64,000 bases of DNA from positions 39,864-103,863 of the forward strand of contig JAIOZA010000008.1 in assembly GCA_021740825.1 (NCBI GenBank), in the 5' to 3' direction. The notes under the pieces are model-generated. The model made no database searches and was not told the origin of the DNA. It was given only the letters and a program-made list of their open reading frames with translations. The DNA is from Bacteroidia bacterium. Its GTDB lineage: Bacteria > Bacteroidota > Bacteroidia > B-17B0 > Aurantibacillaceae. Below are positions 5,842 to 45,673 of this stretch, one piece after another; the stretch's first letter is position 1; the number at the start of each line of letters is the position of its first letter. A program made the position numbers and the translations under genes.

Positions 5842-7071
5842 ATGATGAAATTATCTTTATTACTTGTTTTTTTTAGCGTTATAGGTGTTGCTCAGCCAAA
5901 ATTAGGAATGTGGCGAGGAATACTATTATTGAATGCAGAAAAGAATATTGAGCTCCCATTTAATTTTGAAATTAAAAAGGTAAATGCTAAACTAATAGTA
6001 GTTATTCGCAATGCACAAGAACGTATTATGGTTGATGAAGTTGTTTTTACTAAAGATTCATTAAATTTTAAGATGCCCATTTTTGATACAGAATTTAAAA
6101 CTGAATTAATTGGTGATACCATTCTTAAAGGCGTGTGGATTAATCACACTAAAAAAGAAAACAATACCATTGCCTTTATAGCCAAGTTTGGAAATAAAAA
6201 TCGCTTTAACGTTCCAATGAAGCGAGCGACTAATTTTTATGACGGAAGTTGGGAAACAACCTTTAGCCCAGAATCAAAAGACATTAGCAAAGCCATTGGA
6301 GTTTTTAAATACATTCCTAATTCAGCAATAGTTGAAGGAACTTTTTTAACTGAAACTGGCGACTATCGATTTTTAGAAGGCATAGAAACCAATGGTAAAT
6401 TATTCTTGAGTTGCTTTGATGGCTCACATGCATTTTTATTTATTGCCGAACATAATGAAACAGAAATTATAAAGGGAGATTTTTATTCAGGGTCTATTTG
6501 GCACGAAAACTGGGTAGCAAAACGTAATGATACATTTCAATTACACGATCCCGAGAGTTTAACCTATTTAAAAAATCCTGAAGAGAAAATTGACTTTACT
6601 TTTTACAATACCCAAAAACAAAAAGTAAGTTTAAGCGATGCTAAATACAAAAACAAAGTTGTCATTATACAAATTATGGGTAGCTGGTGCCCAAACTGCA
6701 TGGATGAAAGTGCTTATTTAGCGAAGGTTTACAAACAATACAATCAAAGAGGATTAGAAATTATTGCATTAGCTTACGAGCGAACAGCTGATAGTGAGCG
6801 GGCGACAGCAAATATAATGCGATTAATGAAAAAGTTTGATATCGGTTACGACATCTTGCTTACTGGTTTAACAGGAAAAGATAAGGCCTCTGAAAGTTTA
6901 CCTTTTTTAAATGTTGTGATGGCATTCCCCACCACTATTTTCTTAGATAAAAATCATCAGGTAAAATCGGTTTACACAGGTTTTAGCGGCCCCGCAACCG
7001 GCAAGGCTTATGAGAAATACTCCTTAAAAACGGAGAATTTAATTAATAATTTACTTTACAATAAAGATTGA
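5842..7071 (+). CDS. TlpA/ResA-like thiol-disulfide oxidoreductase (thioredoxin fold) with N-terminal domain of unknown function
   Basis: 409 aa with a signal peptide and a C-terminal thioredoxin fold carrying the WCPNC redox motif. Confidence 0.75.
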   Translation: MMKLSLLLVFFSVIGVAQPKLGMWRGILLLNAEKNIELPFNFEIKKVNAKLIVVIRNAQERIMVDEVVFTKDSLNFKMPIFDTEFKTELIGDTILKGVWINHTKKENNTIAFIAKFGNKNRFNVPMKRATNFYDGSWETTFSPESKDISKAIGVFKYIPNSAIVEGTFLTETGDYRFLEGIETNGKLFLSCFDGSHAFLFIAEHNETEIIKGDFYSGSIWHENWVAKRNDTFQLHDPESLTYLKNPEEKIDFTFYNTQKQKVSLSDAKYKNKVVIIQIMGSWCPNCMDESAYLAKVYKQYNQRGLEIIALAYERTADSERATANIMRLMKKFDIGYDILLTGLTGKDKASESLPFLNVVMAFPTTIFLDKNHQVKSVYTGFSGPATGKAYEKYSLKTENLINNLLYNKD

Positions 7072-7072
7072 T

Positions 7073-7106
7073 TAATAAAATAAATTACTGTAAGGAAAAC
7101 GAATCA
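7073..7106. repeat. Left 34-nt direct repeat, an orphan copy of the hflX 3' terminus
   Basis: taataaaaTaaattactgtaaggaaaacgAAtca is 31/34 identical to 7788-7821 in the same orientation. On the minus strand it still reads IRFPYSNLFY-TAA. It directly abuts the TGA (7069-7071) of the convergent TlpA-like gene. Confidence 0.75.
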
Positions 7107-7649
7107 TTTTTTCTTAGGAAGCTTAAAACCAATTTGTGGTCGTTCCTTTTTGTTTTCTTTCTTTTCTAATAGCTCATCTAAGTACTGAAATACTAATTCG
7201 ATATTTTTATCATGATTACTCACTTTTTTCTTTATGTATTCTATTTCTAACCGAAGATCCGTGTGATTTGATAAAGTTTCTCTTAATAAAATAAATACGT
7301 CGATAATTTTAATACTAACTTCTATTGCTCTTTTACTTTTTAAAACATTGGCTAACATCATAACTCCTTGTTCGGTAAAAGCAAGAGGTAAGTACTTAAT
7401 ATTATCTCCTCTCTTCAAGGTCGCAATTTGCGACCTTGAAACTGTCGCCTCTTCTATTGTCAATTCAAACATGTAGTGTTTTGGAAACCGCTCCATATTA
7501 CGTTTCACTTGTTCTTTTAATCTTTTTGTTTCAACCCCATAAAGTTCGGCTAAATCTCTATCTAGCATTACTTTTTGGTTTCTGATGAAGTAAATCTTTT
7601 GCATTATCACCTCATCAGGTAATAATATTGAATTATTAGTTTCTGCCAT
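7104..7649 (-). CDS. ORF6N (KilA-N-related) domain DNA-binding protein
   Basis: 181 aa. IYFIRNQKVMLDRDLAELYGVETKRLKEQVKRN..RFP..MFELT and YLPLAFTEQGVMMLANVL resemble the ORF6N domain common in Bacteroidota. The stop codon is the last 3 nt of the left direct repeat. Confidence 0.8.
   Translation of the reverse strand: MAETNNSILLPDEVIMQKIYFIRNQKVMLDRDLAELYGVETKRLKEQVKRNMERFPKHYMFELTIEEATVSRSQIATLKRGDNIKYLPLAFTEQGVMMLANVLKSKRAIEVSIKIIDVFILLRETLSNHTDLRLEIEYIKKKVSNHDKNIELVFQYLDELLEKKENKKERPQIGFKLPKKK
7414..7440. repeat. Perfect 27-nt palindrome inside the ORF6N CDS
   Basis: ttcaaggtcgcaa-t-ttgcgaccttgaa has 13-nt arms that are exact reverse complements. On the minus strand it encodes SRSQIATLK. 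Confidence 0.9.
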
Positions 7650-7663
7650 TTTTATACTGATTT

Positions 7664-7686
7664 AGGTATCACAATATGTGACACCT
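7664..7686. promoter_or_regulatory. Imperfect 23-nt palindrome 15-37 nt upstream of the ORF6N start (operator-like)
   Basis: In aggtatcacaatatgtgacacct, 9 of 11 symmetric positions pair. Confidence 0.3.
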
Positions 7687-7754
7687 TGGTTCAATATAAA
7701 ATTAAATAATATAATAGCAGGAATTTGCTATGAAATATAGCAATATTTGTTTTT

Positions 7755-7781
7755 TTCAAGGCCGCAATTTGCGACCTTGAA
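7755..7781. repeat. Second copy (26/27) of the 27-nt palindrome, intergenic, 6 nt from the right direct repeat
   Basis: ttcaaggCcgcaatttgcgaccttgaa differs from 7414-7440 at one base. It lies between the hflX stop and the ORF6N upstream region. Confidence 0.85.
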
Positions 7782-7786
7782 AATTT

Positions 7787-8986
7787 CTAATAAAACAAAT
7801 TACTGTAAGGAAAACGCTTCACATGTATTTCTTTAACGACATCATAAAGTGTTTTTTTAAACTCATTCGTGTTTTCTTTGTTTTGAGCACTAATAAAAAG
7901 CGAAGTTTGATCTAAATTACTCATCCAGGTTTTTTTCAATTCGTCTAAGGATAAATTTTCACGGGTCATTGGTGTTAAATCATCTTCATCTTTCTTAATG
8001 TATTTAAAAGCATCTATTTTATTAAATATTAAAATAGTTGGTTTGTCTTTAGCACCAATATCAATTAAGGTTTGGCGAACTACATTTATTTGATCCTCAA
8101 AATTTGGATGTGAAATATCTACAACGTGAAGTAATACATCCGCTTCTCTTACTTCATCTAGCGTACTTTTAAAGCTCTCCACTAATTGCGTTGGCAATTT
8201 TCTTATAAACCCAACGGTATCACACAATAAAAAAAACAAATTATCAATTGTTACTTTTCTAACAGTGGTATCCAACGTTGCAAATAATTTATTTTCCGCA
8301 AACACTTCGCTTTTACTAATCATGTTCATGATAGTAGATTTACCAACATTGGTATAACCAACTAACGCTACACGCACAAACTCTCCGCGGTTTTTACGCT
8401 GCGTAGCCATTTGCTTATCAATCATTTTTAAATCTTCTTTTAACTGAGCAATTTTGTCACGGGCAATTCGTCTATCTGTTTCAATTTCTTTTTCTCCCGC
8501 TCCCCCGCGTGTTCCAGTGCCACCTCGTTGCCGTTCAAGGTGAGTCCACATACCTGTTAATCGTGGAAGTAAATATTGCATTTGTGCTAACTCAACTTGT
8601 GTTTTAGCATGAGCCGTTTGTGCCCGCTGAGAAAAAATTTCGAGAATCAATGTGGTTCGATCTAAAATTTTTACACCTAATTCTTTTTCTAAATTACGTT
8701 GTTGAGAAGGTGTTAGTTCATCGTCAAAAATAACGATATCAATTTTATGTTCTACAATGTAAGTTTTTACTTCAGTGAGTTTTCCTTTACCAATAAAGGT
8801 GGCTTTGTCTGCTTTTTCTAATTTCTGAGTAAAAACTTTTTTTGTTTCTACGCCATAGGTTGCCGCTAAAAAGGCCAATTCATCTAAATACTCGTATGCT
8901 AAATCCTCGTTTTGTTTTTTATTGATAACGCCTATTAAAACTGCTACAAGTTTTGGTTTTTCTGTTGAGTGAGTGCTTGATTTCAA
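7787..8986 (-). CDS. hflX: GTPase HflX
   Basis: 399 aa. Has the HflX N-terminal domain plus G-motifs GYTNVGKST, DTVGF and NKID. Confidence 0.95.
   Translation of the reverse strand: MKSSTHSTEKPKLVAVLIGVINKKQNEDLAYEYLDELAFLAATYGVETKKVFTQKLEKADKATFIGKGKLTEVKTYIVEHKIDIVIFDDELTPSQQRNLEKELGVKILDRTTLILEIFSQRAQTAHAKTQVELAQMQYLLPRLTGMWTHLERQRGGTGTRGGAGEKEIETDRRIARDKIAQLKEDLKMIDKQMATQRKNRGEFVRVALVGYTNVGKSTIMNMISKSEVFAENKLFATLDTTVRKVTIDNLFFLLCDTVGFIRKLPTQLVESFKSTLDEVREADVLLHVVDISHPNFEDQINVVRQTLIDIGAKDKPTILIFNKIDAFKYIKKDEDDLTPMTRENLSLDELKKTWMSNLDQTSLFISAQNKENTNEFKKTLYDVVKEIHVKRFPYSNLFY
7788..7821. repeat. Right 34-nt direct repeat, the functional hflX 3' terminus
   Basis: taataaaaCaaattactgtaaggaaaacgCTtca encodes KRFPYSNLFY-TAG, the end of HflX, on the minus strand. 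Confidence 0.75.
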
Positions 8987-40531: not shown

Positions 40532-40624
40532 TATTAAATTTTCATTAAATACTTAGTTGCAAAGTTGTTAAATTATTCTCTATCAAAAAAATTTCTTATT
40601 TTAGATTTCTATAAATTTTTCAAG

Positions 40625-43600
40625 ATGATCCGGATTTTTTTTATCATATTTTCCTGTTTTTTATTAACGACTTCTAATGCTCAAGTAATCGATAATTTTA
40701 CTGACGGCGATTATACTTTAAATCCGGTTTGGGCGCCAAGCGCCCCCATAGACTTTACAATTGCTTCCGGACAATTAAAGTCAGTCAATACAACTACTAA
40801 TACAAGTTTTTACATTAGCACAACAAATACATTAGCCGTTAATTGCGTTTGGGAATTTTGGGTAAACCTTCAATTTGCTACTTCGGGGGCTAATTATGTG
40901 GACGCTTATTTAACGGCTGATAATAGTAATTTGTTAAGCCCTGCACTTAATGGGTACTTTGTGCGAATAGGAAATACATCTGACGATATTTGCTTATATA
41001 AAAATACCGCTGGCACACAAACTATAATTATTGACGGTGCTAATGCAAGTGTATCCAGCTCAAGCAATAACCTTATTAAAATTAGAGTAACCCGTACTTC
41101 CTCCAATTTATTTACTTTAGAAAGAGATATAACAGGAACAGGAACTACCTATATTACCGAAGGGACAGTTACTGATGGTACTTTTTCAAGTTCTTTATTT
41201 TTTGGCTTTGCCATAAAACAATCTACAGCAAGTTTTTTTGGTAAACATTTTTTTGATGATATTTCTGTTTCTACTATTGTTTTAGACGTAACGGCTCCCA
41301 CAATTATTAGCGCTACAGCAACTTCTTCTACTAGTATTGATGTGTTCTTTAATGAATCCTTAGATTTAACTACATCGCAAACAAGCACTAATTATAGCAT
41401 TAATCCAGCAATTGGAAATCCCATTACTGCAATTCGCGATGTAAGTAATTTAAGTTTAGTGCATTTAACTGTTGGAACGCCTATAAGTAATGGAAACTAT
41501 ACAATTAGTATAAATGGCATTCAGGATTTAGTGGGTAATGCAATGACAACGTCAACGGTTAGTTTTAATTATTTTGTAGCAGCAACTCCAAATTTTAAGG
41601 ACATTGTTATTAATGAAATATATGCTGACCCATCACCAATAGTCAACTTAACCGCCGCGGAATTTATTGAACTCTACAATAACAGTTCAAATTCTTTTAA
41701 TTTAAACGGCTTAAAACTAACGGACGGAACAAGTATTGCTACATTGGGTAATTATACATTACTACCAAATGGTTATGTGATAGTTTGTCCTATTGCAGAT
41801 ACGGCGCAATTTACTGCTTTAGGTTCTATGAATAAATTAGGAGTAAGCTCTTTTCCTTCTTTAAATAACGCTAGTGATAATATTTATTTAGAAAATAGTT
41901 CAAATGTAGTTTTAGATAGTGTAAATTATTTTGACACCTGGTACCAAAATACTATTAAAAAAAATGGAGGTTGGACTTTAGAACAAATAAACCCAAATCA
42001 AAATGTGGCATGCTCACAAGCTAATAATTGGACTGCTTCAAATGATGTTGATGGCGGAACTCCGGGTTTTGTAAATTCTGTATATTCAATTGCCCCTGAT
42101 ATTACAGGGCCAAATATAGCAGCTTTAACAATTATCGACTCAACACATATTTCAGTTTGTTTTAATGATGTGATTAGCACATCTCAATTAACTAACAATT
42201 TAAATTACTCAATTAATAATTCTATTGGCTCTCCAAGTTTATCAGTAAGCGGAAGCGGGAATATGTGTGCAATTATTTCATTAAGTAATCCCTTGATAAA
42301 TAATACAAGTTATACACTTTCGGTTTCTGGAATTACAGATTGTAACGGAAACAGTATTAGTACGCCAACAGTTAGTTTTACATTTATCGTGTATAGCACT
42401 CCCTTATTCAAAGATGTTGTTATTAACGAAGTGCTGATTGATGTAAATCCTATACCGGCAGGCATTCCAGCTACTCAATATTTAGAACTGTATAATAAAA
42501 GCACGAAAAACTTTAATCTAAATGGTTGGCAGTTTACCGATGGGCAAACTATTTCAACAATTACTACTAACTATGCGTTATTTCCAAATTCGTATGTAGT
42601 AATTGCCAAAAGTGCAGATACAGCTTTATTTATAGGAACACCTAATAAAATTGGAACCAGTACTTTTCCAACGTTTAATGTTACTGGTGATTTAATTTCT
42701 TTATCAGATAATTTTGCAACAACAATCGATTCATTAAGATACACCACCCTTTGGTATAAAGATGCTGTAAAAGATGATGGAGGTTGGAGTTTAGAGCAAA
42801 TAAACCCAAATCAAAATGTGGGATGCTTGCAAGCTAATAATTGGATGGCTTCAAATGATATAGATGGCGGAACTCCAGGATCAGTAAATTCTGTTTATTC
42901 TATTGCACCCGATATTACAGGGCCAAGCATTTCTTCCTTAACGATTATTGACTCAACTCATGTTTCTGTTTGTTTTAATGATGTTATTAGCACTACTCAA
43001 TTAACGAACATCTCAAATTACTCTATCAATAATTCCATTGGCTCACCGTCTTTAGCTTTAACTAGTAACGACAATTTTTGTGCTACGTTATCGCTCAGTA
43101 ATACTTTGGTAAATAATACAAGTTATACATTAGCGGTTTCCGGCATTTCAGATTGCAGTGGAAATGCAATAATGACTGCAACCCTTAGTTTTACTTATGT
43201 TGATTTTGGAACGCCTAATTTTAAAGACATTGTAATTAATGAAATTTATGCCGATCCTTCACCATTAGTTAACTTAACAAGTTGTGCGTTTATTGAACTA
43301 TACAACAAAAGCGTAAATCCGTTTAATTTAAATGGACTAAAAGTAACAGACGGTACTTCGATTGCCACCTTTGGAACATATACCTTGGCGCCAAATAGTT
43401 ATGTTATTATTTGTCCGATAGCTGATACCGCTCAATTTACTGCCTTAGGATATAACAACAAATTAGGAGTAAGTAGTTTTCCATCTTTGAACAATGCCAG
43501 TGATAATTTGTATTTAAAAACAGCTACCAACAATGTAATTGATAGTGTTAATTATTTTGACACTTGGTATAAAAATGCCATAAAAAAAGATGGTGGTTAC

Positions 43601-45673
43601 ACCTTAGAACTCATAAATCCTACCCAAAATGTAACTTGCTCGCAAACTAATAATTGGATTGGTTCAAATGATGTAAATGGTGGAACCCCCGGTTTTGTAA
43701 ATTCGGTTTATTCTGTTTCTCCTGATTTAACAGGACCAAAAATTAATTCGATTAATGTGATTGATTCAACGCATATTTCAGTATGTTTTGATGATGTAAT
43801 TTCTGCTTCACAATTAAGTGCAATAATAAATTACACCATAAGCGGTTCAATTGGCTCTCCAATAGCAGCTTCTGCATCAAATGGAAATACGTGCGTTAAT
43901 TTAACTCTTTCAAATAAATTAATAAATGCTACTAACTACACACTAACGGTTTTTGGATTAACAGATTGTAATGGAAATTTAATTACTCCAAACACAGGTA
44001 CGCTTTCTTATTACAAGCATAAAGCACTAGATGTTGTAATTAATGAATTAATGCCAGATCCAGACCCCGCTATTGACTTACCAAATGAAGAATATGTTGA
44101 ATTGAAAAACCGAACACCTTTTAATATTAATTTAAAAAACTGGAGTTTTTCTACAACAACATCTTCAAAAAAATTACCAGATATAACCATTAAGCCAGAC
44201 AGCTTTATTGTATTGACAGGTTCAGGGAATGCGCCGCAATTTTTTGATAATTTTGGAATAGTTGTTAATGAAGTAATTAGTTTTCCGGCCTTAACAAATA
44301 GTAGTGGCATATTAACACTGAGAGATAGTAATGGTGTTGTGATAAATACGATTAGTTATTTAACAAGTTGGTATAACGATGCTAACAAGCAAGACGGAGG
44401 TTGGAGTATGGAACAAATCGATTCAAATAATCCATGTGCAGGCCAAAGCAACTGGCGAGCTAGTAATCATCCTAGCGGAGGAAGCCCAGGAAGAAGAAAT
44501 TCGGTTTTTGCAGCCAATCCCGATAATAATTTTCCTCAATTAGATAGAATAGCAGTCATAAGTGCTGACACTATTATTTTAATTTTTACAGAACCTTTAG
44601 ACAGCATTAGCTTAATCAATGCAGCTAATTATAATTTTGATAATGGATTAACACAACCCACTTATGTATTGCCATTAGCACCAGATTACAGAAAAGTAAA
44701 GGTTAAGTTATCTAACGCTATGCAAGTAGGTGTTATTTATAATTGTACTGTTTTAAGTGGGATTACCGATTGCGTTGGGAATAATTTAATTAATGGAACA
44801 GCCCCATTTGCTTTACCGCAAGCTCCTGAGCCAAATGACGTTGTGATAAATGAAATATTATTTGACCCAAATACTGGTGGAGTAGATTTTGTGGAATTGT
44901 ATAACAGAAGTAGCAAAGCTATCAATTTAAAAGATATACGCATTGGCTCAATGGATACAATTACCGGTAATTTGACCTATACAGAAGATATTACAACAGA
45001 AGGTTATTTATTATTCCCTGAAAAATATTTAGTAATTAGCGAAAATGGAACTGCTATAAAACAAATTTACTTAACCCCCAACCCTAAAGGGTTTTTAGAT
45101 ATTCCCACTTTACCTAGTATGAATACTACAAATGATGTGGTGACATTAAGTGATGCAAATCTTATTGTTATTGATAATTTTAAATATACCAGTAAAATGC
45201 ATTTTCCTTTATTAGTTAGTACTAAAGGTGTATCCCTTGAACGTATTGATTTTAATAGGCCTACAAATGATAGAACGAATTGGAATAGTGCATCCGAAGG
45301 CGTTGGATTTGCAACTCCCGCTTATCGTAACTCTCAATATTTACAAGCCGATGGCGGAAGTGGGGTTTCTATTTCAAATCCTTTATTTTCGCCTGATAAT
45401 GATGGTTATAATGATGTATTAAATATCAGTTATCAATTAGATGAGCCTGGAAAAGCAGCCAACGTTTATATTTATGATAGCAGAGGCCGACAAGTGCGTC
45501 ACTTAATTAGGAACGAACAATTAGCACAAGACGGTACTTTAAGTTGGAATGGCATTAATGATGATAACGAAAAAGCACCCATTGGAATTTATGTAGTTTA
45601 TGTTGAACTGTTTAATTTATCAGGAAAAGTAAATAAATATAAATTAAGCTGCACTTTAGCAGGTAAACTTTAA
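40625..45673 (+). CDS. Giant secreted surface protein with five lamin-tail-domain (LTD)-type modules and a C-terminal sorting-type beta-sandwich
   Basis: ATG 40625 gives signal peptide MIRIFFIIFSCFLLTTSNAQ, whereas the listed TTG 40565 does not. The VINE(I/L)..DP......E(F/Y)(I/V)ELYN motif repeats five times. The C-terminus FSPDNDGYNDVL...WNG...GIYVVYV is like the T9SS/gliding CTD. Confidence 0.8.
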   Translation: MIRIFFIIFSCFLLTTSNAQVIDNFTDGDYTLNPVWAPSAPIDFTIASGQLKSVNTTTNTSFYISTTNTLAVNCVWEFWVNLQFATSGANYVDAYLTADNSNLLSPALNGYFVRIGNTSDDICLYKNTAGTQTIIIDGANASVSSSSNNLIKIRVTRTSSNLFTLERDITGTGTTYITEGTVTDGTFSSSLFFGFAIKQSTASFFGKHFFDDISVSTIVLDVTAPTIISATATSSTSIDVFFNESLDLTTSQTSTNYSINPAIGNPITAIRDVSNLSLVHLTVGTPISNGNYTISINGIQDLVGNAMTTSTVSFNYFVAATPNFKDIVINEIYADPSPIVNLTAAEFIELYNNSSNSFNLNGLKLTDGTSIATLGNYTLLPNGYVIVCPIADTAQFTALGSMNKLGVSSFPSLNNASDNIYLENSSNVVLDSVNYFDTWYQNTIKKNGGWTLEQINPNQNVACSQANNWTASNDVDGGTPGFVNSVYSIAPDITGPNIAALTIIDSTHISVCFNDVISTSQLTNNLNYSINNSIGSPSLSVSGSGNMCAIISLSNPLINNTSYTLSVSGITDCNGNSISTPTVSFTFIVYSTPLFKDVVINEVLIDVNPIPAGIPATQYLELYNKSTKNFNLNGWQFTDGQTISTITTNYALFPNSYVVIAKSADTALFIGTPNKIGTSTFPTFNVTGDLISLSDNFATTIDSLRYTTLWYKDAVKDDGGWSLEQINPNQNVGCLQANNWMASNDIDGGTPGSVNSVYSIAPDITGPSISSLTIIDSTHVSVCFNDVISTTQLTNISNYSINNSIGSPSLALTSNDNFCATLSLSNTLVNNTSYTLAVSGISDCSGNAIMTATLSFTYVDFGTPNFKDIVINEIYADPSPLVNLTSCAFIELYNKSVNPFNLNGLKVTDGTSIATFGTYTLAPNSYVIICPIADTAQFTALGYNNKLGVSSFPSLNNASDNLYLKTATNNVIDSVNYFDTWYKNAIKKDGGYTLELINPTQNVTCSQTNNWIGSNDVNGGTPGFVNSVYSVSPDLTGPKINSINVIDSTHISVCFDDVISASQLSAIINYTISGSIGSPIAASASNGNTCVNLTLSNKLINATNYTLTVFGLTDCNGNLITPNTGTLSYYKHKALDVVINELMPDPDPAIDLPNEEYVELKNRTPFNINLKNWSFSTTTSSKKLPDITIKPDSFIVLTGSGNAPQFFDNFGIVVNEVISFPALTNSSGILTLRDSNGVVINTISYLTSWYNDANKQDGGWSMEQIDSNNPCAGQSNWRASNHPSGGSPGRRNSVFAANPDNNFPQLDRIAVISADTIILIFTEPLDSISLINAANYNFDNGLTQPTYVLPLAPDYRKVKVKLSNAMQVGVIYNCTVLSGITDCVGNNLINGTAPFALPQAPEPNDVVINEILFDPNTGGVDFVELYNRSSKAINLKDIRIGSMDTITGNLTYTEDITTEGYLLFPEKYLVISENGTAIKQIYLTPNPKGFLDIPTLPSMNTTNDVVTLSDANLIVIDNFKYTSKMHFPLLVSTKGVSLERIDFNRPTNDRTNWNSASEGVGFATPAYRNSQYLQADGGSGVSISNPLFSPDNDGYNDVLNISYQLDEPGKAANVYIYDSRGRQVRHLIRNEQLAQDGTLSWNGINDDNEKAPIGIYVVYVELFNLSGKVNKYKLSCTLAGKL
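41591..45250 (+). repeat. Intragenic tandem modules of about 810 nt (five LTD plus Ig-like units)
   Basis: Module starts lie near 41591, 42404, 43219, 44027 and 44836. A 25-nt exact repeat, caaataaacccaaatcaaaatgtgg, occurs at 41984 and 42797 (offset 813 nt). Confidence 0.8.

What the first reader, a model, noticed from the sequence alone, without database searches (positions are those of the whole stretch)
7073..7821. Single-gene ORF6N cassette (715 bp) bracketed by 34-nt direct repeats that duplicate the 3' end of hflX
7073-7106 and 7788-7821 are 31/34 identical, in the same orientation and exactly 715 nt apart. The right copy is the genuine HflX C-terminus (minus strand ...KRFPYSNLFY-TAG). 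The left copy still reads IRFPYSNLFY-TAA in the equivalent frame but is attached to no gene, and it abuts the TGA of the convergent TlpA-like gene. Between the repeats lies only one 181-aa ORF6N/KilA-N-type DNA-binding gene plus a ~138-nt palindrome-rich upstream region. The ORF6N stop codon is the last 3 nt of the left repeat. This is the footprint expected from site-specific insertion into the 3' end of hflX that regenerates the target gene, as integrative islands do at tRNA genes. Here, however, the cargo is a single small gene with no recombinase. A trans-mobilised ORF6N mini-cassette is not an element class I know to be described.
Basis: seen in the sequence. Interest (0 to 1): 0.7.

Follow-up and report, generated by a model that had tools for sequence, protein, structure and literature searches.

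The report
Single-gene ORF6N cassette at hflX end
A 715-bp insertion carrying one anti-repressor-like (candidate anti-phage) gene sits in the last codons of the GTPase gene hflX, bracketed by two copies of the hflX tail; close relatives have the clean empty site, so it is a real gain/loss cassette, though no enzyme that moves it was found.

Summary
The repeat copies at 7073-7106 and 7788-7821 match at 31/34, lie 715 nt apart, and exceed chance. Between them is one ORF6N gene and its 138-nt upstream region.

The insertion reading is largely supported:
- Nine independent occupied hflX sites in two sister clades of freshwater Bacteroidia all carry the hflX-tail duplication (22-27 of 27 core positions).
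- Precise empty sites, with the hflX stop 1-4 nt from the tlpA stop, occur inside both clades.
- The far copy always starts TGATTCG. That is an Ile-type hflX tail foreign to this Lys-type clade, while both outer flanks are native.
- Cassettes are mosaics exchanged between clades.

What is not supported is a general "ORF6N mini-cassette" class. ORF6N singletons elsewhere (rpoC, purB/EVE, OmpA contexts) show no neighbour-gene duplication. No recombinase, circle or tandem junction was found.

The cargo matches PADLOC PDC-S05, a candidate single-gene phage defence. Paralogues sit at the end of tyrosine-recombinase-trio elements.

A further finding is that the "27-nt palindrome" is a covarying, family-wide element inside ORF6N coding sequences, with extra copies at cassette borders.

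Verdict: a new variant of an integrase-less, att-flanked islet (CIME-like), of moderate interest.

The parts
5842..7071 (+). Convergent TlpA-like thiol:disulfide oxidoreductase gene. It is the native right-hand neighbour of hflX in empty sites.
   Evidence: ORF. Pfam Redoxin and AhpC-TSA. It abuts the hflX stop directly in L011, L200-L205 and L210.
7073..7106 (-). Far (distal) copy of the hflX tail, attached to no gene. The 27-nt core (7073-7099) looks like the native clade tail. The last 7 nt (7100-7106, TGATTCG on the minus strand) are foreign Ile-type hflX sequence and supply the ORF6N stop codon.
   Evidence: Its core and junction match the empty sites L200 and L206. TGATTCG matches the hflX tails of L003, L008 and L085, not this clade's GTGAAGCG.
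7104..7649 (-). ORF6N-domain gene (181 aa): N-terminal ORF6N DNA-binding-type domain plus a conserved C-terminal helical tail. It matches the PADLOC candidate defence family PDC-S05 and the PHROG anti-repressor family.
7414..7440 (.). Perfect 27-nt palindrome inside the ORF6N coding sequence (encodes VSRSQIATLK). It is a family-wide covarying element.
7665..7685 (.). 21-nt palindrome GGTGTCACATATTGTGATACC (minus strand) between the promoter-like AT-rich stretch and the ATG. It has the same sequence family as the internal palindrome of type-2 ORF6N alleles.
7725..7743 (.). Conserved imperfect palindrome TTGCTATATTTCATAGCAA at the left part of the cassette's upstream region.
   Evidence: Conserved in all hflX-linked cassettes. 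The hairpin is weak.
7755..7781 (.). Upstream copy of the 27-nt palindrome (1 mismatch), 6 nt after the hflX stop. It is a 22-24-nt presence/absence difference among cassettes.
   Evidence: Present in WIN, L001, L081, L096, L085 and L199; absent in L006, L088 and L005.
7788..7821 (-). Near (proximal) repeat copy: the functional 3' end of hflX (the TAG stop is at 7787-7789).
7787..8986 (-). hflX, the target gene. It is intact at 399 aa, the same length as in relatives with empty sites.

Best explanation
The 715-bp unit is a discrete single-gene cassette. It consists of its own upstream region and one ORF6N/PDC-S05-type gene.

How it got there. The cassette entered the convergent hflX/tlpA junction by recombination inside the last ~27-34 nt of hflX. 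This works like a Campbell-type or attP x attB exchange. hflX keeps a complete tail, and a second hybrid tail copy is left at the far end.

How it behaves now. It can be lost precisely by recombination between the two copies. It is also exchanged, whole or in modules, between related lineages, with the exchange ending at the repeats.

What moves it. The cassette encodes no recombinase. The enzyme must act in trans. The best candidate is a tyrosine recombinase of the kind that carries paralogous ORF6N genes (recombinase-in-trio elements). The alternative is host RecA acting on the short homology.

What it does. The cargo is most likely a DNA-binding, anti-repressor-like protein acting as a single-gene anti-phage or regulatory module. 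It probably binds the palindromes in and upstream of its own gene.

Shown versus inferred. Shown: the footprint, the empty sites, the hybrid structure of the repeats, mosaicism, and inter-clade exchange. Inferred: the integration mechanism, the enzyme, present-day mobility, and protein function.
For: 1. Footprint. The repeat is 31/34 and beyond chance.

2. Recurrence. Nine distinct occupied hflX sites (WIN, L081, L199, L006, L089, L096, L085, L088, L188) all have the duplication, with 22-27 of 27 core positions identical.

3. Precise empty sites inside both clades. Clade B: L011 and L004. Clade A: L200-L206, whose HflX is 95% aa / 88% nt identical to the window. L210 is also empty.

4. Hybrid repeats.
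- The far copy starts TGATTCG/TGATTTG in all type-1 cassettes. That is Ile-type hflX, although clade A and the outgroups L010, L012 and L013 are Lys-type (GTGAAGCG).
- The rest of the window's far copy, and its junction (TTTATTTTATTAA|TCAATC), equal the native empty sites L200 and L206.
- The near copy's right end (TTTGTTTTATTAG) equals clade-B cassettes.
- Both outer flanks are native clade A.

5. Inter-clade exchange, window versus L006.
- Identity is 75.6% in the hflX 3' end but 96.3% in the ORF6N core and 91.4% in its 3' part.
- Identical codons among conserved residues are 61% in hflX versus 81% in ORF6N.
- Distant type-1 genes show only ~50% identical codons. A general nucleotide-level constraint therefore does not explain the excess.

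6. Module swapping.
- Two N-domain types (58% aa identity) share the same upstream region, the same C-terminal 50 aa and the same repeats.
- L085, a clade-B host, has a left cassette part that is 89-93% like the window but only 30-82% like L006.

7. Concerted repeat copies. CAGT occurs in both copies in clade A, CAAT or TATAAT in both in clade B, and TTTCCC in both in L081.

8. Links to mobile elements. ORF6N paralogues of 58-81% identity lie directly after the third recombinase, or after RadC, of three-tyrosine-recombinase elements.

9. Cargo identity. PDC-S05 at E 6.6e-65 and PHROG anti-repressor at 1.6e-28. One PDC-S05 representative reduced T7 and T5 plating about 1000-fold (bioRxiv 10.1101/2024.09.26.614923).
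Against: - No integrase-bearing element occupies the hflX tail in about 30 related loci.
- No RIT-type recombinase was detected in the window.
- No circle or tandem junction was found in the data searched.
- The upstream region and the first 90 nt of ORF6N diverge between clades about as much as hflX does (77-81% versus 76%) and are 94-99% identical within clade B. This is what vertical descent from one old insertion would give.
- The hflX-linked cassette is confined to one genus-level group.
- A single conservative crossover cannot put the clade-specific CAGT in both copies. That needs mismatch correction, gene conversion or a clade-A donor.
- ORF6N singletons elsewhere have no such repeats.
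- The PDC-S05 representative tested in the literature carried a RhuM domain and may belong to another subfamily.
Confidence: 0.55

Rival explanations
1. One ancient insertion that is now immobile. The cassette entered the hflX tail once in an ancestor of both clades and has been inherited vertically since. Empty sites are precise deletions between the two repeat copies. Allele types and conserved segments reflect ordinary homologous recombination and gene conversion with other ORF6N copies.
For: - The upstream region and the ORF6N 5' end track host divergence: 77-81% between clades and 94-99% within clade B.
- The left junction is identical in all cassettes.
- The cassette is restricted to one group of relatives.
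- No mobilising enzyme or circle was found.
- Other ORF6N singletons lack repeats.
Against: - It needs at least five or six independent precise losses: L003/L008, L011, L004, L200-206, L210 and L002.
- The far copy is Ile-type in a Lys-type clade whose outgroups are also Lys-type.
- The ORF6N core is 96% identical across clades whose hflX 3' end is 76% identical.
- The exchange tracts stop inside the 27-nt repeat while both outer flanks stay native.
Confidence: 0.3
2. Remnant of a larger integrative element (prophage, ICE or recombinase-trio element). The element once integrated at an attB in the hflX tail and decayed to its terminal ORF6N gene, giving a CIME-like relic that a related intact element could mobilise.
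For: - ORF6N is a typical phage or mobile-element gene.
- Paralogues sit at the end of three-recombinase elements.
- The attL/attR-like hybrid repeats fit this origin.
Against: - All nine occupied sites have the same minimal 0.69-0.72-kb content, with no trace of other element genes.
- No intact element was seen at hflX in any relative.
- Sequence after the ORF6N stop in recombinase-trio contexts shows no hflX-tail-like sequence.
Confidence: 0.15
3. Transposon-like insertion, in which the two hflX-tail copies are a target-site duplication made by staggered cuts.
For: Both copies carry the host-specific variants: CAGT, TATAAT and TTTCCC.
Against: - A 27-nt duplication is far longer than known target-site duplications (established knowledge: typically 2-15 bp).
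- The cassette has no terminal inverted repeats.
- There is only a single copy in the window.
- ORF6N singletons at other sites have no duplications.
- It uses the same single target in every case.
Confidence: 0.04
4. Chance similarity or an assembly artefact.
For: None beyond the AT-richness of the region.
Against: - 0 of 20 simulated windows contain such a repeat.
- The same architecture appears in independent assemblies from NCBI, JGI, ENA and Logan.
Confidence: 0.01

Closest known systems
CIMEs (cis-mobilisable elements): integrase-less elements flanked by attL/attR at the 3' end of a protein-coding gene, e.g. those at fda in Streptococcus (PMC5704250, PMC6323972)
   Same: - Direct repeats duplicate the 3' end of the target gene.
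- The target gene is regenerated.
- There are no integration or transfer genes inside.
- Relatives have empty sites.
- The repeats are hybrids of element and host sequence.
   Different: - It is only 0.7 kb with a single gene.
- No cognate ICE or integrase using the hflX tail was found.
- The two repeat copies evolve in concert.
- The host is Bacteroidia.
- Mobilisation has not been shown.
Minimal mobile elements / variable hot spots between conserved genes (as in Neisseria; from my own knowledge), and defence islets
   Same: - The hflX-tlpA junction holds alternative contents in relatives: ORF6N type 1 or type 2, Por_Secre_tail genes, a lipoprotein, a two-component system, or nothing.
- The cargo matches a candidate defence family.
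   Different: - Hot-spot exchange by flanking homology does not create or need a duplication of the target gene's end.
- Here the exchange tracts end inside the short repeat rather than in the flanking genes.
Integrative elements that use host recombinases (IMEX at dif) and integron gene cassettes
   Same: It is a small recombinase-less cassette, and palindromic sites are associated with the cassette.
   Different: - The hflX tail is not a dif-like inverted-arm site and has no predicted structure.
- The palindromes lie at the 5' side and inside the gene, not as a 3' attC.
- The cassette has its own upstream promoter-like region.
- No arrays and no intI were found.
Recombinase-in-trio (RIT) elements carrying RadC and ORF6N (L103-L106, L082, L087)
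   Same: Their ORF6N genes share 58-81% identity with the cassette gene, the same C-terminal tail, and in L087 the same 5'-UTR palindrome.
   Different: - The window cassette has no recombinases.
- The RIT-linked copies have no hflX-tail sequence after the gene.
Operator pairs with one site inside the coding sequence (lac O2 in lacZ, gal OI in galE) and parS inside parB/spo0J (from my own knowledge)
   Same: Two copies of one palindrome, one upstream of the promoter and one ~340 bp downstream inside the gene, adjacent to a gene for a predicted DNA-binding protein.
   Different: - Binding has not been tested.
- The internal palindrome is conserved family-wide even where no external copy exists.

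Membership tests
ORF6N domain family (Pfam PF10543) | Match to the family HMM above the gathering score | tested here: met
   116.8 bits against a cut-off of 27.8, covering model positions 1-86/86.
PADLOC PDC-S05 (candidate single-gene phage defence) | Full-length match to a PDC-S05 HMM | tested here: met
   PDLC04856, E 6.6e-65, model positions 3-175/177.
PADLOC PDC-S05 (candidate single-gene phage defence) | Protection against phage | not testable with these tools
   One representative, annotated with a RhuM domain, gave about a 1000-fold EOP drop for T7 and T5 (bioRxiv 10.1101/2024.09.26.614923). This protein itself is untested.
CIME-like integrase-less integrative element | Flanking direct repeats that duplicate the target gene's 3' end, with the target regenerated | tested here: met
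   Seen at nine occupied sites.
CIME-like integrase-less integrative element | Empty site with a single repeat copy in relatives | tested here: met
   L011, L004, L200-L206 and L210.
CIME-like integrase-less integrative element | No recombination or transfer genes inside | tested here: met
   One ORF only, and it is an ORF6N gene.
CIME-like integrase-less integrative element | A cognate integrase-bearing element using the same att site | tested here: not met
   None was found at the hflX tail in the related loci. No RIT-type recombinase in the window. Whole genomes were not available.
CIME-like integrase-less integrative element | Excision or circular intermediate | tested here: inconclusive
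   The circle/tandem junction pattern was absent from viral contigs and all fetched loci. Reads and the metagenome collection could not be searched.
Integron gene cassette | Promoterless ORF followed by an attC hairpin, in an array next to intI/attI | tested here: not met
   The palindromes are 5' of and inside the gene. The cassette has a 138-nt upstream region of its own. It is single, and no integrase is nearby.
IS / MITE / transposon | Terminal inverted repeats, a short target-site duplication, and multiple copies at varied sites | tested here: not met
   No terminal inverted repeats link the cassette ends. There is one copy in 64 kb. Other ORF6N singletons lack duplications.
Recombinase-in-trio (RIT) element | Three adjacent tyrosine recombinase genes | tested here: not met
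   Absent from the window. Present next to paralogous ORF6N genes in L103-L106.
Variable hot spot / minimal mobile element | Alternative gene contents between the same conserved flanking genes | tested here: met

The most novel reading that the evidence does not exclude
ORF6N/PDC-S05 genes carry their own cis-acting site. This is a 12-13-bp-arm palindrome written into the codons of the conserved SQxxT motif, maintained by compensatory changes across the family. In freshwater Bacteroidia, extra copies of that palindrome mark the cassette borders.

If these sites are where the cassette is recombined, the unit would be a new kind of minimal, self-marked mobile defence cassette. A palindrome-to-palindrome deletion is seen in L089. 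If instead they are where the protein binds to sense or regulate, it would be a self-marked regulatory module. Either way it would be serviced by trans-acting recombinases at the hflX tail.
Probability: 0.2. Interest if true: 0.8.

Novelty: new variant of a known kind. Interest (0 to 1): 0.55.

Why it matters
If the cassette really moves as a unit, it would be one of the smallest att-flanked integrative units known: one candidate defence gene, about 0.7 kb, and no recombinase. It would show how single defence genes are slotted into and out of the end of an essential-type gene without damaging it.

It also gives a tractable test bed:
- a defined 27-34-nt site;
- occupied and empty alleles in abundant lake Bacteroidia with long metagenome time series.

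Separately, the covarying palindrome inside ORF6N coding sequences is a nucleotide-level constraint on a very large protein family (more than 7,900 close homologues). I found no description of it. It may point to how these anti-repressor-like proteins are regulated or recognise DNA.

Tried and rejected
- Rfam scan of 6800-8100 at a permissive threshold: only chance-level hits.
- AlphaFold2 on a 38-sequence alignment: mean pLDDT 48. The model is unusable, so no fold search was run.
- Profile search of PDB sequences: nothing meaningful.
- NCBIfam: no hit.
- Exact look-up of the window's HflX: not on record because the start codon was called differently. I used homologues instead.
- NJ bootstrap values from my script were unreliable after re-rooting. 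Only the topology and clade identities are used.
- Search for a circle or tandem junction (far-copy left part followed by the cassette's left end): none in viral contigs or the 211 fetched loci.
- Idea that the palindrome is a generic terminator of these genomes: rejected. CGCAAWTTGCG occurs only at the two ORF6N-linked places in 64 kb. In the fetched loci almost every match is in or next to an ORF6N gene; L009 is the exception. The terminator scan found none in the region.
- Idea that the upstream palindrome is a decayed ORF6N fragment: similarity does not extend convincingly beyond the palindrome (D1). Extragenic copies also keep their own symmetry through compensatory differences.
- Target-site duplication and integron readings: rejected (see the membership tests).
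- Neighbour-gene-end duplications at other ORF6N sites (rpoC, purB/EVE, aminotransferase/OmpA): none found.
Full report
**1. The observation**

- The region reads exactly as described. A 34-nt direct repeat (7073-7106 and 7788-7821) is 31/34 identical with a spacing of 715 nt.
- Its 20-nt core occurs nowhere else in the 64-kb window. No simulated window contains a comparable repeat.
- The right copy is the end of an intact 399-aa hflX. The left copy is an orphan IRFPYSNLFY-TAA whose pseudo-stop touches the stop of the convergent redoxin/TlpA-like gene.
- The only gene between the copies is a 181-aa ORF6N protein (Pfam 116.8 bits). Its TGA forms the last three bases of the left copy.

**2. Relatives: occupied and empty sites**

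HflX-based and ORF6N-based searches recovered the same junction from many independent assemblies of freshwater Bacteroidia. By hflX sequence they form two groups:
- Clade A contains the window, L001, L002, L081, L199 and L200-206, with L209 and L210 nearby.
- Clade B contains L006, L089, L096, L187, L088, L085, L005, L011 and L004.
- L003 and L008, which lack the cassette, are sister to clade B.

Nine distinct occupied sites all show the duplication of the hflX tail immediately after the ORF6N stop. The 27-nt core matches at 22-27 of 27 positions, with spacing of 690-715 nt.

Precise empty sites, with the hflX stop 1-4 nt from the tlpA stop, occur inside both clades:
- L011 and L004 in clade B.
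- L200-L206 in clade A (HflX 95% aa, 88% nt identical to the window).
- L210.

The L206 junction (TATTAG|TCAATCTTT) matches the junction of the window's far copy (TATTAA|TCAATCTTT) apart from the last base of the stop codon.

**3. Anatomy of the cassette (alignment A1)**

In order along the hflX strand:
- The near repeat, which is the hflX tail.
- An optional 27-nt palindrome (PAL1). It is a 22-24-nt presence/absence difference in an otherwise homologous left junction.
- The imperfect palindrome TTGCTATATTTCATAGCAA.
- An AT-rich promoter-like stretch.
- A 21-nt palindrome (PAL2) just before the ATG.
- The ORF6N gene.
- The far repeat.

There are two N-domain types sharing only about 58% aa identity. 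Type 1 carries PAL1 inside the gene. Type 2 carries a PAL2-like palindrome at the same codons. Both types share the upstream region, the last ~50 codons and the repeats. The cassettes are therefore mosaics of interchangeable modules.

**4. History**

Some segments track the host.
- The upstream region and the first 90 nt of ORF6N are 77-81% identical between clades and 94-99% identical within clade B. This is similar to the hflX 3' end, at 72-76% between clades and 89% within clade B.

Other segments do not.
- The ORF6N core is 94-96% identical in all type-1 pairs, and its 3' part is 91% identical between the window and L006.
- Identical codons among conserved residues are 81% in ORF6N against 61% in hflX.
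- Distant type-1 genes show only about 50% identical codons. This excess is therefore recent shared ancestry, not a general nucleotide-level constraint.
- L085, a clade-B host, has a left cassette part resembling clade A.

The repeats themselves are hybrids.
- In every type-1 cassette the far copy begins TGATTCG/TGATTTG. That is the Ile-type hflX tail of L003, L008, L009 and L085.
- Clade A and the outgroups L010, L012 and L013 are Lys-type (GTGAAGCG).
- The remainder of the window's far copy, and its junction, equal the native clade-A empty sites.
- The right end of the near copy (TTTGTTTTATTAG) equals clade-B cassettes.
- Outside the repeats both flanks are native.

This is the pattern of an exchange whose end points lie within the short repeat, like attL/attR hybrids. 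One detail does not fit a single conservative crossover: clade-specific variants (CAGT; TATAAT; TTTCCC in L081) are present in both copies. That requires mismatch correction, gene conversion or a same-clade donor.

**5. What it is not**

- ORF6N singletons of 78-82% identity sit in unrelated housekeeping contexts: after rpoC, between purB and an EVE gene, and before an OmpA gene. None duplicates a neighbouring gene's end. The rpoC-linked copy does have a weak 30-nt flanking direct repeat (77% identical) that includes a palindrome, together with palindromes on both sides.
- There are no terminal inverted repeats, and the window holds only one copy.
- No integron features are present.
- No integrase-bearing element occupies the hflX tail in the relatives. 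Other contents of the hflX-tlpA gap are ordinary genes.
- No circle or tandem junction was found where I could search.
- So there is no evidence for a general class of duplication-making ORF6N mini-cassettes, and none for present-day mobility.

**6. Links to mobile elements and function**

- ORF6N paralogues (58-81% identity, same C-terminal tail) lie directly after the third recombinase, or after RadC, of elements with three adjacent tyrosine recombinase genes. Contigs break shortly after the gene.
- More distant homologues are common in viral contigs and are annotated as anti-repressors in Paenibacillus phages.
- The protein matches PADLOC PDC-S05 over its full length at E 6.6e-65.
- One PDC-S05 representative, annotated with a RhuM domain, lowered T7 and T5 plating about 1000-fold in E. 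coli (bioRxiv 10.1101/2024.09.26.614923).
- The family is very large, with more than 7,900 hits at E <= 1e-20. The literature held here mentions ORF6N in only 11 papers, and none of the listed titles or abstracts concerns cassettes.

**7. The palindrome**

- The 27-nt palindrome is not a local oddity. In 35 distinct ORF6N genes (40-100% aa identity) aligned by protein, the codons around the conserved SQ motif form a 12-pair helix.
- 92.6% of cells are paired, against 72.7% in column shuffles (0 of 500 shuffles reach the observed value) and 31-45% when the partner is slid.
- 10 of 12 pairs show changes on both sides.
- The third base of the Ser codon covaries with the second base of the Ala/Val codon. 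The constraint therefore acts on nucleic acid, not protein.
- Even the four genes left out of the alignment because of register shifts carry a palindrome nearby. A Paenibacillus phage homologue at 32% identity keeps a shorter one, CGTCAAATTGACG.
- As RNA the hairpins are stable, at -19 to -20 kcal/mol with z about -6.8.
- Extragenic copies are found only next to ORF6N genes of the freshwater Bacteroidia set.
- In L089 the segment between the upstream and internal copies is missing, leaving a 5'-truncated gene. The two copies therefore do recombine.
- The arrangement is one site upstream of the promoter and one ~340 bp downstream inside the gene. It resembles operator pairs that loop DNA (lac O1/O2, gal OE/OI; my own knowledge). 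I consider autoregulatory binding by the ORF6N protein the likeliest role, but this is untested.

**8. Verdict**

- The insertion-footprint reading is supported by clean empty sites, recurrence, hybrid repeats and inter-clade exchange that ends at the repeats.
- The mechanism (trans-acting tyrosine recombinase versus RecA on short homology), present-day mobility and the function of the cargo remain inferred.
- The main rival is a single old insertion followed by precise losses and allelic recombination. It explains the host-tracking left part but needs many losses, and it does not explain the Ile-type far copy in a Lys-type clade.
- The closest described category is the integrase-less, att-flanked CIME, and more loosely the variable hot spot or defence islet. 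This cassette is a small, single-gene Bacteroidia variant of that kind.
- The family-wide intragenic palindrome is the most unexpected by-product and deserves its own follow-up.

Noticed in passing
window 7414-7440, and the equivalent codons in L081-L186 (alignment A3): A 12-13-bp-arm palindrome is written into the codons of the conserved SQxxT motif of ORF6N genes and maintained by compensatory changes. 92.6% of cells are paired versus 72.7% in shuffles, and 10 of 12 pairs change on both sides. It is family-wide, not local.
   Followed up: yes
L089 4031-4372: This cassette lacks everything between the upstream and internal copies of the 27-nt palindrome. That leaves a 5'-truncated ORF6N directly after the hflX stop, so the two copies have evidently recombined.
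   Followed up: partly
L103-L106 (1-4546), L082 (1-1310), L087 (1-875): ORF6N paralogues (58-81% identity) lie at the end of elements with three adjacent tyrosine recombinase genes, with or without RadC. Contigs end within about 1 kb after the gene, as expected for repeated elements.
   Followed up: partly
L009 7201-7250: There is no ORF6N here. Even so, a hairpin with the same CGCAAATTGCG centre (AAAAAAAGCTCGCAAATTGCGAGCTTTTTTT) sits about 20 nt after the hflX stop. It could be a terminator or the scar of a lost cassette.
   Followed up: no
hflX-tlpA gap in L006 7890-8690, L089 4401-5357, L096 3575-4543, L187 1202-2191, L003 4834-5595, L010 7216-9758: The junction is a variable hot spot. Different relatives carry a 266-aa gene, Por_Secre_tail genes in either orientation, a lipoprotein, or a two-component system between the hflX tail and tlpA.
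   Followed up: partly
L002 1320-1830: In the window's closest relative (hflX 94% nt identical) similarity ends exactly at the hflX stop. The next gene looks like dUTPase by its sequence (not checked with a family search) instead of the cassette and tlpA. This is either a rearrangement with a breakpoint at the repeat or a MAG mis-join.
   Followed up: no
L101 3778-4616: An 82%-identical ORF6N lies downstream of rpoC. It is flanked by a 30-nt direct repeat (AAAATAGAAT plus a palindrome, 77% identical) whose right copy overlaps the stop codon, and by CGCAATTTGCG-type palindromes on both sides.
   Followed up: partly
window 7104-7649: The ORF6N protein matches the PADLOC candidate defence family PDC-S05 (E 6.6e-65). 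One family representative has reported anti-phage activity in a preprint.
   Followed up: partly
window 41963-43000 (inside ORF 40565-45673): A long internal direct repeat (up to 32/34 identity, offset 813 nt) lies inside a 1702-aa ORF. It is presumably a repeated protein domain.
   Followed up: no
L196 3345-3830: A cluster of 47-59-nt GC-rich repeats with inverted copies (REP/MITE-like) fills the ~0.9-kb gap upstream of another ORF6N singleton.
   Followed up: no
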